Of a stretch of DNA of 64,000 nucleotides, positions 29,469 to 57,491 are shown in pieces. The DNA comes from Candidatus Hydrogenedens sp. (GTDB taxonomy: Bacteria; Hydrogenedentota; Hydrogenedentia; Hydrogenedentales; Hydrogenedentaceae): the NCBI GenBank assembly GCA_035378955.1, contig DAOSUS010000001.1:20580-84579 (forward strand), given 5' to 3'. How positions within the stretch are numbered: position 1 is the first letter of the stretch; every line of letters starts with the position of its first letter. The position numbers and the translations under genes are program-made. The notes beneath the pieces are model-generated. The model had not been told where the DNA came from, ran no database searches, and was given only the letters and a program-made list of their open reading frames with translations.

Positions 29469-30040
29469 CCTATAGGAGATAAAGAATACATAGATTTTAG
29501 AGTCCTCATAATACCATAAAGGATACAAAAACACGAATGAAGAAGGAAAGAAAATCTCTTCCAACTTGACATACACTATTTTTTCTCTTTGTAGATTGGA
29601 TTTCAATTGGTCAAAAAATTATCACCACGAATTACACAAATAGACACGAATAAAAACAAATGGAAAAAAATCTATCATCCATTATTTCATTTAATGAACG
29701 GAACCGTCCTCGCTTCGGGTATTTTTAATTGGATAAATCTTTCAACCACAAAAGATACAAAGATTTTGCACAGAGTTCACAATGTAGGAGCGAAATATGT
29801 TTCGCTCGCACCTTCTCTGTGGTTTTTGTGTGAAATTTCCTTCGTGTCCTCTGTGATTAATTCTTTTTTACTACGAAGAGCACAGAGCTCTTGCACAAAG
29901 TGTACAAAGATGAAAGATCCCGAAGCAGGGATGCTTCATCTACAATCTTCTTGTCCTTATAGTCTTGTCAGGGCATGGCATGCCATGCCCTTACGATTGG
30001 AAAGAAAGAAAGTATAAATCTGCTACCTATCTCCTATAGG
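29469..30040. repeat. Region bounded by a perfect 12-bp inverted repeat (CCTATAGGAGAT at 29469-29480 / ATCTCCTATAGG at 30029-30040), enclosing a ~100-bp repeat element and a 20-bp palindrome
   Basis: Read directly from the sequence. The CCTATAGG core is itself palindromic. Confidence 0.5.
29971..29990. repeat. 20-bp perfect palindrome GGGCATGGCATGCCATGCCC
   Basis: Exactly self-complementary; GC-rich within an AT-rich intergenic region. Confidence 0.8.
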
Positions 30041-30108
30041 TTATCAAATAGGATATCTCTACTAAAACGGAAAGGAAATTATAAATCTATTACCTATGTT
30101 CTATTACC
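30014..30108 (+). promoter_or_regulatory. Array of direct repeats containing TACCTAT upstream of the hdr promoter
   Basis: ATAAATCTGCTACCTAT (30014-30030) and ATAAATCTATTACCTAT (30071-30087); tandem TTACCTATGTTCTA x2 (30081-30108). Confidence 0.45.
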
Positions 30109-55036: not shown

Positions 55037-57268
55037 ATGGAGAAAATTCGGAACAACGGTTATGTCTGCTTAATTCTGATTATCTCAATTTCTCTTTTTC
55101 CCACAAATGTTTTTTCGGATGAAGCAAAACCCCAAACCGATGAAAAAACAAACGAATACTATCAGACCCTTTTGCAAGCAATAAATCTCATCAACTTTTC
55201 CCTCAATCGAATCTGTTCTACTTCAAGCATTTCTATGATAAAAGCAGAATATACCTATATCCTTAATAACATTGATTTAGATAAAGTTAATTTTCCTGAA
55301 GAAATAAAAAATACTTATCAAGAGATTATCAACTCCCTTTCCGAATTGAAAACCGCAAAAGGAAAACTATCAGAAGGAATAGACCTTTTAGAAAGGGAAC
55401 ACTATTTACGACTGGATAAACCGTCTTCTGAATTAGTGCATTCTTTGATTAATCTTCAAGAAATGAATAGGGATACCCGTCATTCCCTAATGAATTGTAG
55501 CAAAATACTATATTATCGCTGTTTGTTTGATAACCGTTTTTATAATTACGAATCGTGTAGTTACCCGCCTGATGAACTGAATGAAGAGTTTAGAAGAACT
55601 GTTTCAAGTGTTAAAAAAGAATGGATGGAAGTAATAAAACCTTATTTTTATAATCAAATTTTACCAAAATTACCCGATGCCTTGTTGGTAGAAGATAGAA
55701 TGGTTCAGTTGCTTTTAAGGAATTTCTATGCAAAGGATTTTGGTTTATGTCTGCAATCGTTTAATGACATGCAAAAGACAGAAAAGGGGATAGTTCAAAC
55801 ACCCATTTATTGGTTGTTATATGCCTTTTCAGCCAGCACAGGGAAAAATAATGAAGTAACGGAAATATGTATGGATAAGTTTTTGGAATGTTACGAAAGC
55901 GTGTTGAAAAAAGATATCTTTCTTGAAGTTATTTATATTCGTAAGTTAGAACACCTCCTCCAAAAAAATCCAGAGTTAAAAGATGAAAGTATTAATCAAA
56001 AAATGCTGGCTATTGCAGAAAATGCCTATAAATATGTTAATGACAAAAACATACTTTATAAAATCTACTTAGCCGCAATATTTTACAGACTAAATAAGAT
56101 GGAAAAAACTCAAGAAATATTATCAGGAATAAACCCGGAATTTGTAGATAAGGAAAATAGAGCTGAGTATGGATTTTATCAACTTGCCATGTATGATTTA
56201 AATCATGGTTATGATGTTTTTGACCATATGAGATTATTGGCAAAAATCCTGGAATGGGAACCTGTAAATCTTGAACAGTTAGAAGAAATAAAGGAGGCTA
56301 AAATTCCAGAAGCGTTTCTTTACTTAGGGCGTAAATATATCTATGGAAAGGAAAATAAAGACAGGGATAAAGGATTGGCATATATGGAAGAAGCCAGCGA
56401 GTTGGGAAGTGAAGAAGCAACCTCTTATCTCGCGTATAGATATATGTATGGTTATCTACCGGGAATGAAAAAAGACGAAAAGAAAGGTTTAGCATACTTT
56501 CAAAAGCTGGCAGAAAAAGGAGACCAGAAAGCCCTCTGCGAGATTGGTAGATGTTACTATATAGGAATTGCTGTTCCACAGGATTTTAATAAAGCAAAAG
56601 AATACTTTGAGAAATCTGGAAAAGATGGCAAATATTGGTTAGGATTGATGTATAGCAAAGGTGACGGTGTTCCACGAGATTATCAAAAAGCATACGAATG
56701 TTTTTATGATGTAATACGAGACGATCTTTCTTATGGTGGATATCAAAATCATTATAGTTCTTATAGTCATGAAGCAAATATGGCTATTGGAGATTTGTAT
56801 TTTACCGGGAAAATTGATGTTGTAAATTACATAAAGGCTATGGAATATTATCAGAGAGCAAGTTCTCTCCCCGAAGCACAGGTAAAAATGGGTTACATTT
56901 ACGAAAACGGCTATGAAATACAGAAGAGTTATACAAAAGCCAAAGAATGTTATGAAAAAGCAGGAAGTCAAGGAAATTTAGAAGCAATACTTCGTTTAGG
57001 CGATTTTTATCTTTATGGATTGGCAGGAAAAAAAGATTATGTATTATCTTATGCACATTATACACTGGTAATACGATTAGTAAATGAAGGAAGTGACCAT
57101 CCACAAGCCAAAGAATTAGCCCAACAAGCAGAACAGACACGCAAAAAACTCCTACCCAATATCTGGAATTTCTGGTCAGGACTAACTCCCGAGGAAATCA
57201 AAGAAGCCGAAGAACTCGCCAACTCCTGGAAGCCCTACTCCATCCTCACAAGAAAAAAAATTAAGTGA
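55037..57268 (+). CDS. Secreted Sel1-like repeat (SLR) protein
   Basis: Signal peptide; repeated Sel1 motifs (GLAYMEEASELGSEEATSYLAYRYMYG, GLAYFQKLAEKGDQKALCEIGRCYYIG, etc.). Confidence 0.75.
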   Translation: MEKIRNNGYVCLILIISISLFPTNVFSDEAKPQTDEKTNEYYQTLLQAINLINFSLNRICSTSSISMIKAEYTYILNNIDLDKVNFPEEIKNTYQEIINSLSELKTAKGKLSEGIDLLEREHYLRLDKPSSELVHSLINLQEMNRDTRHSLMNCSKILYYRCLFDNRFYNYESCSYPPDELNEEFRRTVSSVKKEWMEVIKPYFYNQILPKLPDALLVEDRMVQLLLRNFYAKDFGLCLQSFNDMQKTEKGIVQTPIYWLLYAFSASTGKNNEVTEICMDKFLECYESVLKKDIFLEVIYIRKLEHLLQKNPELKDESINQKMLAIAENAYKYVNDKNILYKIYLAAIFYRLNKMEKTQEILSGINPEFVDKENRAEYGFYQLAMYDLNHGYDVFDHMRLLAKILEWEPVNLEQLEEIKEAKIPEAFLYLGRKYIYGKENKDRDKGLAYMEEASELGSEEATSYLAYRYMYGYLPGMKKDEKKGLAYFQKLAEKGDQKALCEIGRCYYIGIAVPQDFNKAKEYFEKSGKDGKYWLGLMYSKGDGVPRDYQKAYECFYDVIRDDLSYGGYQNHYSSYSHEANMAIGDLYFTGKIDVVNYIKAMEYYQRASSLPEAQVKMGYIYENGYEIQKSYTKAKECYEKAGSQGNLEAILRLGDFYLYGLAGKKDYVLSYAHYTLVIRLVNEGSDHPQAKELAQQAEQTRKKLLPNIWNFWSGLTPEEIKEAEELANSWKPYSILTRKKIK

Positions 57269-57329
57269 GTATAAAATATCATTCACAAATAAGATAGAAA
57301 AATAAGGAAGTGAGAGCGTAAAATCTTTC

Positions 57330-57467
57330 GCCCCATTCCCCCCATTCGTCCCATAGTCCCCTATGTCCCATGTGTCTCATAGTCCCATTCGTCCCACAGT
57401 CCCATCAGTCCCATTCGTCCCATGGTCCCATTCGTCCCACAGTCCCATAGTCCCATTCGTCCCATAT
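57330..57467. repeat. GC-rich tandem repeat of a degenerate 8-9 bp unit (GTCCCATTC / GTCCCACAG / GTCCCATAG), about 16 copies
   Basis: Read directly: ...CCCCATTCGTCCCATAGTCCC...TCCCATTCGTCCCACAGTCCCATAGTCCCATTCGTCCCATAT, in the convergent intergenic region. Confidence 0.8.
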
Positions 57468-57491
57468 ATACCAATGATCGAATATCTGTGG

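What the first reader, a model, noticed from the sequence alone, without database searches (positions are those of the whole stretch)
57300..57491. GC-rich 8-9 bp tandem repeat (~16 units of GTCCCAYNN) between convergent Sel1-protein and hydrolase genes
In a roughly 40% GC genome, this is a 140-bp block of near-perfect short tandem repeats that is about 60% GC. The repeats alternate GTCCCATTC with GTCCCACAG or GTCCCATAG, giving an 17-18 bp higher-order unit. A spurious 74-aa ORF reads through it. Short tandem repeats like this are slippage-prone and could act as a length-variable element. Possible roles are a terminator, spacer or regulator for the two flanking secreted-protein genes, or a protein-binding array (the C-rich strand carries CCCA/TGGG). 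There is no spacer structure, so it is not a CRISPR array.
Basis: seen in the sequence. Interest (0 to 1): 0.5.

Follow-up and report, generated by a model that had tools for sequence, protein, structure and literature searches.

The report
Fast-changing short repeat between two genes
A real, non-coding block of about 16 copies of an 8-9-base unit (GTCCCA plus 2-3 bases) fills the gap between two genes that face each other; it gains and loses copies between close strains. It belongs to a widespread but apparently undescribed family of repeat elements, usually hairpin-forming, that sit just after gene ends.

Summary
Window 57327-57466 holds about 16 head-to-tail units of GTCCCA+N2-3 (C 44%, G 12% on the + strand; 56% GC against 38% for the window). 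It is the only such array in 64 kb.

It lies in the 223-nt gap between a Sel1-repeat gene (+) and a ceramidase-family gene (-), and it is non-coding. Copy number varies between lineages:
- about 16 units here;
- about 30 in a lineage whose ceramidase gene is 99.4% identical, through one 130-bp indel;
- about 19 in a 92% lineage;
- none in the 86% and 81% lineages, which keep the same gene pair.

The same GTCCCAT+NN nonamer occurs in Planctomycetota, Verrucomicrobiota, Lentisphaerota, Acidobacteriota and Hydrogenedentota. There it usually forms inverted arrays, [ATGGGAC arm]-loop-[GTCCCAT arm] (63 cases against 11 in the reverse order), that fold into long hairpins close to stop codons.

The window copy is a one-armed, overgrown version. 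The G-rich RNA (ceramidase 3' UTR) folds well (z = -6.1) and ends in a hairpin followed by a U-rich tail. The C-rich RNA (Sel1 3' UTR) is unstructured and looks like a Rho loading site.

I found no Rfam family or paper describing it. The function is inferred, not shown: most likely a transcript-end or insulator element, otherwise a REP-like neutral repeat.

The parts
57327..57466 (+). Tandem array of about 16 units of GTCCCA + 2-3 nt. The C-rich strand is the + strand. The best-preserved run is 57382-57464 (10 exact cores). The left end (57327-57381) is degenerate: GCCCCATTC, CCCCCATTC, GTCCCCTAT, GTCTCATA.
57297..57350 (-). Hairpin predicted on the minus-strand RNA only. The 5' arm is the last degenerate G-rich units (57350-57329). 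The loop is 57328-57319. The 3' arm is the pyrimidine-rich partner CGCUCUCACUUCCUUAUUUUUC (57318-57297). Predicted energy is -17.7 kcal/mol for the 81-nt segment that contains it, and 7 of the 18 pairs are G.U. The partner reads as a degenerate inverted copy of the repeat unit.
   Evidence: The same hairpin is predicted in L129, and a similar one in L130 with pair-preserving changes (G.U to A-U, G.U to G-C), read by eye.
57284..57296 (-). U-rich tail (UAUCUUAUUUGUG) following the hairpin on the minus-strand RNA. It is not a clean U run.
   Evidence: The simple terminator scan did not call it.
57467..57491 (.). Linker between the array and the ceramidase stop codon, beginning with an AT-rich stretch (ATATATACC...). 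Counted from the last exact core (57459-57464), the G-rich repeats start 27 nt after the stop of the minus-strand gene.
55037..57268 (+). Sel1-repeat protein gene (743 aa). Its transcript would carry the C-rich, G-poor, unstructured copy of the array, which starts 59 nt after the stop.
57492..58850 (-). Neutral/alkaline ceramidase-family gene (452 aa from the ATG at 58850). Its transcript would carry the G-rich copy of the array as a 3' UTR.
57363..57587 (+). Spurious 74-aa ORF that reads through the array and into the antisense of the ceramidase gene's 3' end.
   Evidence: Frame-breaking length differences of 130 and 20 nt between lineages.

Best explanation
The block is a non-coding, minisatellite-like array. 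It is one overgrown arm of a REP-like intergenic element built from the nonamer GTCCCAT+NN.

**Family form.** In other phyla, members are usually two inverted arrays: 5'-(NNATGGGAC)n-loop-(GTCCCATNN)m-3'. They fold into long hairpins and sit close to stop codons.

**This lineage.** In this low-GC lineage (probably Candidatus Hydrogenedentes; the name is from memory and from truncated source names) the C-rich arm has grown to about 16 units. The G-rich arm is reduced to a degenerate partner of 1-2 units. The array grows and shrinks by multi-unit block duplication or deletion, so copy number differs between close strains.

**Most likely function (inferred).** It acts as a shared transcript-end module for the two convergent genes.
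- On the minus strand it gives the ceramidase mRNA a G-rich 3' UTR. That UTR ends in a G.U-rich hairpin plus a U-rich tail, which could terminate transcription or protect the 3' end.
- On the plus strand it gives the Sel1 mRNA a 140-nt C-rich, G-poor, unstructured stretch. This is the composition of a Rho loading (rut) site. It would stop read-through into the antisense of the ceramidase gene.

**Shown:** the anatomy, non-coding status, length variation, family membership, architecture bias and predicted strand-specific folding.
**Inferred:** transcription, termination and Rho dependence.
For: **Anatomy and chance**
-.

**Non-coding**
- Mixed 8/9-nt spacing.
- Length differences of 130 and 20 nt between lineages.

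**Length variation at the same locus**
- Gaps of 223, 353, 243, 132 and 104 nt, holding about 16, 30, 19, 0 and 0 units.
- L129 differs from the window by a single 130-bp indel; every other gap base is identical and the ceramidase DNA is 99.4% identical.
- L484 carries 29 units.

**Family**
- Position 7 is T in 77 of 120 loci although the pattern did not force it, while positions 8-9 are near background.
- Adjacent inverted pairs are [G][C] 63 times against [C][G] 11 times (p = 7e-4 and 7e-8).
- The pairs fold into hairpins of -54 to -120 kcal/mol.
- Duplex partners lie 3' of the G-sense array in 46 cases against 18.
- Arrays begin about 0-50 nt after credible stop codons, closer on the G-sense side.

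**Window**
- G-sense RNA: -65.2 kcal/mol, z = -6.1.
- C-sense RNA: -25.2 kcal/mol, z = -1.0.
- The array alone as C-sense RNA: -6.0 kcal/mol over 140 nt, with C 43.6% and G 12.1%.
- Hairpin plus U-rich tail.

**Second locus, probably in the same lineage**
- L402 has tetranucleotide r = 0.959 to the window.
- It shows the same layout: convergent genes, with the array abutting the stop of the G-sense gene. Its C-sense RNA is less structured than shuffles (z = +1.9).
Against: - **Dispensable.** The array is absent from relatives that keep the same gene pair (L132, L134), so it is not needed for these genes.
- **No transcription data** were available.
- **Weak terminator signal.** The window hairpin is modest (about -18 kcal/mol, 10-nt loop, 7 G.U pairs). 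Its tail is not a clean U run, and the terminator scan did not call it.
- **Family hairpins lack U tracts.** Only 2 of 56 have TTTT.
- **Gene context is not exclusively 3'.** With my crude gene calls, family elements are also found between divergent genes (6 of 30 pairs). At least one array lies upstream of a gene start (L394).
- **Orientation argues against a family-wide rut role.** C-sense and G-sense placements after gene ends are about equally frequent (roughly 22 each by my reading).
- **L402 has no hairpin partner**.
- **No control shows the heptamer is special.** Control scans of viral contigs show period-9 arrays of arbitrary hexamers are common, mostly as coding repeats. Raw hit counts therefore do not show that GTCCCA is special.
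Confidence: 0.5

Rival explanations
1. Neutral or selfish repeat. The array is a by-product of replication slippage or unequal recombination on a seed sequence, or of a REP-like mobile element. It is tolerated because the gap between convergent genes carries no promoters, and it does nothing for the flanking genes.
For: - It is absent in the 86% and 81% lineages with the same gene order.
- A block indel separates strains 99.4% identical in the ceramidase gene.
- The units turn over between lineages.
- Arm lengths are unbalanced across the family.
- Spacers are only weakly complementary between arms.
- Gene contexts are mixed, including divergent ones.
- Local recombination mosaicism is seen around the gap.
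Against: - The heptamer core is kept while the 2-nt spacer varies freely, both within arrays and across several phyla.
- There is a strong [G][C] orientation bias.
- Arrays sit close to stop codons.
- Pure slippage predicts identical units and no shared core between phyla.
Confidence: 0.3
2. Binding array. The repeated heptamer ATGGGAC/GTCCCAT, at 8-9-nt spacing, is a multi-site platform for a multimeric protein. The protein would be either RNA-binding (like TRAP or CsrA sponges) or DNA-binding (like the arrays bound by ribbon-helix-helix or MraZ-type proteins). Those comparisons are recalled from memory and were not tested.
For: - The core is conserved and the spacer variable.
- Both direct and inverted arrangements occur.
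- Spacers need not pair.
- The same core is seen across phyla.
Against: - No candidate protein was identified.
- No consistent neighbouring gene was seen; the genes between arrays in four loci are ordinary.
- The arrays are dispensable between close relatives.
- Only one array occurs in 64 kb of this genome.
Confidence: 0.12
3. Non-B nucleic-acid structure. The G-rich strand (15 GGG tracts with 5-6-nt loops) forms G-quadruplexes, and the C-rich strand forms i-motifs. These would block polymerases or drive the repeat instability.
For: - Three non-overlapping canonical G4 motifs lie here, against 4 in the whole 64-kb window on that strand and 0 on the other.
- Length instability is observed.
Against: - ViennaRNA with quadruplex energies keeps the hairpin fold and places no G4.
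- Loops of 5-6 nt give weak G4s (my estimate from the standard ViennaRNA energy model).
- G4 needs only the GGG tracts and does not explain the conserved A/T and AC flanks or the inverted-arm architecture.
Confidence: 0.06
4. Phase-variable contingency locus. Unit-by-unit slippage would switch expression of the Sel1 or ceramidase gene.
For: Copy number differs between lineages.
Against: - The array lies 3' of both genes.
- The one resolved change is a 130-bp block.
- The units are heterogeneous rather than identical.
Confidence: 0.02

Closest known systems
REP / REPIN / BIME elements (repetitive extragenic palindromes; GTAG- and CGTC-tagged families, PMC3733652)
   Same: Both are short extragenic repeats dispersed in intergenic gaps, mostly as inverted doublets that fold into larger hairpins. 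Both lie near gene 3' ends and are variably present between relatives. Proposed roles for REPs are termination and mRNA stabilisation.
   Different: A REP unit is itself a 20-40-nt palindrome with an unpaired GTAG or CGTC tag. Here the unit is a non-palindromic 8-9-mer repeated in tandem, and the hairpin arises only from opposed arrays. No RAYT transposase link was seen. The same heptamer recurs across phyla, whereas REP sequences are mostly lineage-specific.
Cyanobacterial STRR heptamer repeats (from memory) and TAACTGA heptamer direct repeats of Beggiatoaceae, Cyanobacteria and Bacteroidetes (PMC4679880)
   Same: Both are tandem arrays of a very short unit in intergenic DNA. Each genome has many loci, copy number is variable, the same unit is shared by distant lineages, and the function is unknown.
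   Different: Those units are exact 7-mers without a spacer. TAACTGA repeats lie mostly just upstream of start codons, with only one indirect repeat set reported. Here there is a 7-nt core plus a variable 1-2-nt spacer, placement after stop codons, and a predominantly inverted architecture.
Rho-utilisation (rut) sites / Rho-dependent terminators
   Same: On the + strand the array is about 140 nt of C-rich (44%), G-poor (12%), essentially unstructured RNA in a 3' UTR. It faces a convergent gene, which is the setting where Rho suppresses antisense read-through (general knowledge).
   Different: rut sites are not normally tandem repeats. In most family members the C-rich arm is paired in a hairpin. 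Rho dependence is untested.
Intrinsic (hairpin) terminators, including U-tract-less 'I-shaped' hairpins proposed in high-GC bacteria (from memory)
   Same: Both are stable hairpins directly after stop codons, often between convergent genes and usable from both strands.
   Different: The stems here are built from periodic 7-bp blocks separated by 2-nt mismatches. Arms reach 20 units, and U tracts are almost always absent.

Membership tests
CRISPR array | Repeats of about 23-50 nt separated by unique spacers of similar length | tested here: not met
   Units are 8-9 nt and head-to-tail, with only a 2-3-nt variable part.
Coding (collagen-like, 3-residue) repeat | Reading frame preserved through the array and between relatives | tested here: not met
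   Mixed 8/9-nt spacing. Length differences of 130 and 20 nt between lineages. Many GTCCCAC/G-type arrays in other genomes do appear to be coding and form a different class.
REP / REPIN | Each unit is an imperfect palindrome of 20-40 nt | tested here: not met
   The unit GTCCCAYN(N) is not self-complementary. The C-strand array alone folds at only -6 kcal/mol over 140 nt.
REP / REPIN | Unpaired GTAG or CGTC tag at one end of the unit | tested here: not met
   CGTC appears only when a spacer happens to end in C (TTC|GTC). Units with spacers AA, AG or CA lack it.
REP / REPIN | Units predominantly in inverted doublets able to form a larger hairpin | tested here: met
   Across the family, 74 adjacent inverted pairs were found, 63 of them in one orientation, with hairpins of -54 to -120 kcal/mol. 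In the window, the partner arm is only a degenerate 1-2 units.
REP / REPIN | Association with a RAYT (Y1 transposase) gene and many copies per genome | tested here: inconclusive
   The genes between arrays in four loci are ordinary. One array occurs in 64 kb here, plus two more loci in contigs of matching composition. No whole-genome census or transposase search was possible.
STRR / heptamer direct repeats | Exact 7-nt unit repeated without spacer | tested here: not met
   The period is 8-9 nt, made of a 6-7-nt core plus a variable spacer.
Intrinsic terminator | GC-rich hairpin immediately followed by a U tract | tested here: inconclusive
   The minus-strand hairpin 57297-57350 (about -17.7 kcal/mol, 10-nt loop, 7 of 18 G.U pairs) is followed by UAUCUUAUUUGUG. 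The consensus scan did not call it.
Rho-dependent terminator (rut site) | At least about 70-80 nt of C-rich, G-poor, unstructured RNA downstream of a stop codon | tested here: met
   On the + strand: C 43.6%, G 12.1%, MFE -6.0 kcal/mol over 140 nt, starting 59 nt after the Sel1 stop.
Rho-dependent terminator (rut site) | Termination that depends on Rho | not testable with these tools
   Needs transcript 3'-end mapping with and without a Rho inhibitor, or an in-vitro assay.
Phase-variable simple-sequence contingency locus | Repeat tract inside a promoter or the 5' coding region, so that unit changes switch a gene | tested here: not met
   The array lies 3' of both flanking genes.
G-quadruplex motif | Four or more G3+ tracts separated by 1-7 nt | tested here: met
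   The minus strand has 15 GGG tracts and 3 non-overlapping canonical motifs. Folding with quadruplex energies does not use them, so actual formation is unsupported.
Any Rfam RNA family | Match at the family's gathering score | tested here: not met
   There were 0 hits in the window and in 18 family loci. The only match in the permissive E-value scan of the gap is a chance hit (E = 2) to a mammalian lncRNA model.

The most novel reading that the evidence does not exclude
GTCCCAT+NN nonamer arrays may be an undescribed, cross-phylum class of extragenic element. They are found in the PVC group, Acidobacteriota, Hydrogenedentota and others. On this reading, the heptamer is conserved because a widely shared factor reads it, such as a multimeric RNA- or DNA-binding protein or a component of the termination or RNA-decay machinery. 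The fixed 5'-G-arm/3'-C-arm hairpin placed at stop codons would then mark a distinct way of ending or protecting transcripts in phyla where canonical U-tract terminators are scarce.
Probability: 0.2. Interest if true: 0.65.

Novelty: new variant of a known kind. Interest (0 to 1): 0.4.

Why it matters
For this window alone it matters little. The array is a dispensable, strain-variable intergenic repeat.

The wider pattern is more useful:
- The same heptamer core occurs at a 9-nt period in several phyla that are mostly uncultured or poorly studied.
- It is arranged almost always as G-arm then C-arm and sits close to stop codons.
- It has no Rfam model, and no paper in the searched library prints its sequence.

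If these elements end or stabilise transcripts, they would help annotate operon boundaries in Planctomycetota, Verrucomicrobiota, Acidobacteriota and Hydrogenedentota MAGs. They would also point to a conserved factor that reads them.

Practically, the arrays are strain markers (16, 19 or 30 units) and likely assembly break points, since several arrays sit at contig ends.

Tried and rejected
1. **Rfam.** No family matched at gathering score in the window or in 18 family loci. A permissive scan of the gap gave only a chance hit.
2. **Literature.** Searches for the unit, for dimers of the unit, and for REP or tandem-repeat descriptions in these phyla found nothing on this repeat. Only analogues turned up: REP, TAACTGA and STRR.
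3. **Control scans.** Scans of viral contigs with two permuted hexamers gave 37 and more than 120 loci, against 95 for GTCCCA. Period-9 arrays are common there as coding repeats, so this control cannot show that GTCCCA is special. I rely instead on the unforced T at position 7.
4. **Gene context.** Home-made ORF rules (GC3 > GC1 > GC2) gave only a weak excess of convergent over divergent settings. I do not claim strict 3'-end placement.
5. **U tracts.** A test for U tracts after family hairpins was negative.
6. **Spacer pairing.** A test for complementary spacers between arms gave only weak enrichment.
7. **Flank similarity.** An apparent shared right flank (CCAATGA..AATAT) between the window and L402 lies inside L402's coding sequence. 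I dismissed it as coincidence.
8. **Transposase link.** Genes lying between pairs of arrays are ordinary.
9. **G-quadruplex folding.** It was not favoured by the energy model.
10. **Organism name.** Source names are truncated ('Candid...'). The Hydrogenedentes assignment rests on my memory of GCA_000402275.1 and the TA-biofilm sample, and is not verified.
11. **Same-strain samples.** They are clonal, so they say nothing about repeat stability.

Full report
**1. What is there**

Reading 56700-58100 and running Tandem Repeats Finder shows a single array at 57327-57466.
- It has period 9 with 16.1 copies. Higher-order periods of 17, 26 and 43 nt are also reported; period 43 gives 88% matches.
- The units are GTCCCA followed by 2 or 3 bases. 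The spacing string is 8998989989889.
- The right two-thirds (57382-57464) carry ten exact cores. The left end is degenerate: GCCCCATTC, CCCCCATTC, GTCCCCTAT, GTCTCATA.
- The dimer pattern occurs 7 times, against 0.04 expected, and only here.
- On the + strand the array is C 43.6%, G 12.1%, T 27.9% and A 16.4%. That is 56% GC in a window of 38% GC.

The array lies in the 223-nt gap between two convergent genes.
- The first is a Sel1-repeat gene (55037-57268, +).
- The second is a neutral/alkaline-ceramidase-family gene (57492-58850, -). Pfam hits come from the precomputed calls.
- The array starts 59 nt after the Sel1 stop.
- Its last exact core ends 27 nt before the ceramidase stop.

**2. Not coding, not CRISPR, not a known RNA**

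- The mix of 8- and 9-nt units breaks every reading frame.
- The 74-aa ORF 57363-57587 cannot be conserved. The gap differs by 130 nt and by 20 nt in relatives.
- There are no spacers of CRISPR size.
- Rfam gives nothing at gathering score for the window. A permissive scan of the gap gives only a chance hit.

**3. Variation at the locus**

Exact-protein look-ups found the same locus in five other samples.
- Their gap is the same length, with one SNP in one sample.
- The three samples compared show 0 differences over 3.8 kb. They are effectively clonal, so this says nothing about stability.

Homologues of the ceramidase led to related lineages that keep the same gene pair. The identity column is ceramidase DNA identity to the window.

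| Locus | Identity | Gap (nt) | Units |
|---|---|---|---|
| Window | - | 223 | about 16 |
| L128/L129 | 99.4% | 353 | about 30 |
| L484 (metagenome contig) | 99.9% (872-nt part) | 353 | 29 |
| L130 | 91.7% | 243 | about 19 |
| L132/L133 | 86.4% | 132 | none |
| L134 | 80.7% | 104 | none |

- L129 differs from the window by one 130-bp indel inside the array. Every other base of the gap is identical.
- In L130 the cores are mostly intact but the spacers differ (CC, GC, GT).
- The gaps in L132/L133 and L134 are AT-rich.

The array is therefore lineage-specific and dispensable for the gene pair. It changes length by multi-unit blocks faster than the flanking genes accumulate substitutions.

Divergence on the two sides of the gap is discordant.
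- L129 is 92.9% identical in Sel1 and 99.4% in the ceramidase gene.
- L130 is 98.1% identical in Sel1 and 91.7% in the ceramidase gene.
- Recombination has therefore shuffled this region.

**4. The same unit elsewhere**

One scan of metagenome contigs with a related pattern did the same. Parsing them separates two classes.

- **Class 1: GTCCCAC/G/A units.** These often lie inside long ORFs. Examples are GTCCCACNG, which reads as Gly-Pro-Thr, in actinobacterial or Bacteroidota loci. They look like coding 3-residue repeats. Control scans of viral contigs with permuted hexamers show such period-9 arrays are common.
- **Class 2: GTCCCAT+NN units.**
  - These are mostly intergenic.
  - They occur in Planctomycetota, Verrucomicrobiota, Lentisphaerota/Victivallales, Kiritimatiellia, Acidobacteriota (including Thermoanaerobaculia), Hydrogenedentota and a few others (titles).
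  - T at position 7 was not forced by the search pattern. It is nevertheless the majority base in 77 of 120 loci, in genomes with about 19% T.
  - Positions 8-9 are close to background.

**5. Architecture of the family**

- In the G-rich orientation, a strongly complementary partner lies downstream far more often than upstream: 46 against 18. The median duplex energy is -24 against -18 kcal/mol.
- Adjacent inverted pairs run [ATGGGAC arm]-loop-[GTCCCAT arm] 31 against 9 times in the genome set and 32 against 2 in the metagenome set.
- They fold into long hairpins, for example L096 at -107 kcal/mol and L460 at -101 kcal/mol. Several of the loops listed have an AT-rich centre.
- Arms are often unequal, for example 14/5, 21/7 or 4/10 units.
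- The 2-nt spacers are only weakly complementary between arms: at least 75% match in 31% of pairs, against 13% in a shuffled null. The stems are therefore 7-bp blocks separated by small internal loops.
- U tracts are essentially absent (2 of 56).
- With crude ORF rules, arrays start about 0-50 nt after credible stop codons, and closer on the G-sense side. In L499, two hairpins follow two successive co-directional genes by 18 and 1 nt.
- Some elements appear between divergent genes (6 of 30), and one array lies upstream of a start codon (L394). I therefore do not claim exclusive 3'-end placement.
- The genes between arrays are ordinary, and no transposase was seen.
- No Rfam family matches 18 such loci. 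No paper in the searchable library prints the unit dimers.

**6. The window copy in that light**

The window has no inverted core pair. The sequence just left of the array (GGAAGTGAGAGCG, 57308-57320) reads as a degenerate inverted unit.

Folding is strongly strand-specific.

| RNA | MFE (kcal/mol) | z against shuffles |
|---|---|---|
| Whole gap, minus strand (G-rich, ceramidase 3' UTR) | -65.2 | -6.1 |
| Whole gap, plus strand | -25.2 | -1.0 |
| Array alone, C-rich RNA (140 nt) | -6.0 | not computed |

- The minus-strand fold ends in a hairpin at 57297-57350.
  - The last degenerate G units pair with CGCUCUCACUUCCUUAUUUUUC.
  - Seven of the 18 pairs are G.U.
  - A U-rich tail follows.
- The same hairpin is predicted in L129. 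A similar one is predicted in L130, where the differences I could align by eye preserve pairing (G.U to A-U, G.U to G-C). That is one comparison and weak evidence.

The window copy thus keeps the family order, G-arm then C-arm on either strand. Its C-arm has grown to 16 units and its G-arm has nearly vanished.

A second locus, L402, comes from the same reactor sample as L129.
- Its tetranucleotide correlation to the window is 0.959. Known relatives give 0.97-0.98, and most unrelated low-GC loci give 0.71-0.83.
- It repeats the layout: convergent genes and a one-armed array of about 24 units, with the first G-sense unit supplying the stop codon of a 647-aa ORF.
- Its C-sense RNA is less structured than shuffles (z = +1.9).

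L458 has a 4-unit array and shares another dispersed repeat with the window.

**7. How it most likely works**

Shown:
- the anatomy and non-coding status;
- block-wise length change;
- family membership and the arm-order bias;
- the predicted strand-specific folding.

Inferred: a role at transcript ends.
- **Ceramidase mRNA.** The array would be a G-rich 3' UTR closed by a hairpin and a U-rich tail. This could terminate transcription or protect the 3' end.
- **Sel1 mRNA.** The array would be a long, C-rich, G-poor, unstructured stretch. That is the composition expected of a Rho loading site. It is placed so that Rho would act before RNA polymerase runs far into the antisense of the ceramidase gene.

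I put about 0.5 on this package. My confidence is high for the structural and evolutionary description and about 0.35-0.4 for the functional part.

The main rival, at 0.3, is that the array is a tolerated REP-like or slippage by-product with no role. Supporting it are the array's absence in near relatives, its rapid turnover and the mixed gene contexts of the family. Against it are the conserved core beside a free spacer, the same core in several phyla, and the strong arm-order bias.

The lesser rivals:
- A binding platform for a multimeric protein (0.12) would explain the conserved core, but it has no candidate protein.
- G-quadruplex or i-motif formation (0.06) is motif-positive: 3 of the 4 canonical motifs in 64 kb lie here. 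The folding model does not favour it.
- Promoter-type phase variation (0.02) does not fit a position 3' of both genes.

**8. Comparison with known systems**

- It works most like REP/REPIN/BIME elements and hairpin terminators.
- It resembles STRR and TAACTGA heptamer repeats (PMC4679880) in being a very short unit shared by distant lineages.
- It is not a member of any of these. The unit is not a palindrome, has no GTAG or CGTC tag (PMC3733652), is not a spacer-less heptamer, and is not followed by U tracts.
- The + strand meets the compositional definition of a rut site. Rho dependence cannot be tested here.

**9. Verdict**

This is a real feature, correctly spotted. It is non-coding and variable in length between strains. 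It is an overgrown member of a widespread family of GTCCCAT-nonamer elements that I could not find described.

I rate it a new variant of a known kind (extragenic repeat or hairpin elements), with interest 0.4. The window's own copy is ordinary and dispensable. The family-level regularities are the part worth following up.

Noticed in passing
window 29700-30050 and 61300-61530 (core match 29810-29865 vs 61465-61520): A second, unrelated dispersed intergenic repeat, 82% identical over 56 nt. It contains internal inverted motifs (ACCACAAAGA / CACAGAG ... CTCTGTG / TTTGTGTG). Several copies also occur in metagenome contig L458 from the TA-biofilm sample. It looks like a REP- or MITE-like element of this lineage.
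   Followed up: partly
window 55037-58850 compared with L129, L130 and L484: Divergence is discordant on the two sides of the gap. L129 is 92.9% identical in Sel1 but 99.4% in the ceramidase gene. L130 is 98.1% in Sel1 but 91.7% in the ceramidase gene. In L484, identity jumps from about 89% to 100% inside Sel1 near 56600-56900. Recombination breakpoints therefore lie in or near this region.
   Followed up: partly
L402 5270-5490 (contig JGI11944J13513_1000023): A second one-armed array of about 24 units, with TTTT-containing variants, lies in a contig whose composition matches the window's lineage. The first G-sense unit (ATGAGAC) supplies the TGA stop of a 647-aa ORF. No hairpin partner is present.
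   Followed up: partly
L011, L046, L054, L078, L102 and others (genome loci): Variant cores of the same period-9 family (TTCCCAT, GTCGCAT, GTCCGAT, GTCCTAT, GTCTCAC) occur in the same loci as GTCCCAT arrays. Sometimes the core switches within one array, for example GTCGCATAG x13 followed by GTCCCATAG. Almost all period-9 arrays in these 0.94 Mb belong to this family or are one-base variants (131 of 152 are family).
   Followed up: partly
L052, L082, L394, L446, L497 and others: Several arrays sit at the very ends of contigs. This suggests these repeats break short-read assemblies and that their copy numbers in MAGs are underestimated.
   Followed up: no
window 59595-60487: Five copies of a 32-nt repeat, spaced 78-81 nt apart in two clusters, lie inside the 667-aa Glug/PASTA-domain gene (59018-61021, -). 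These are coding domain repeats unrelated to the finding.
   Followed up: no
window about 30000: GC skew changes sign near 30 kb, from negative before to positive for about 6 kb after. This coincides with a low-GC (31.5%) stretch and the dispersed repeat noted above.
   Followed up: no
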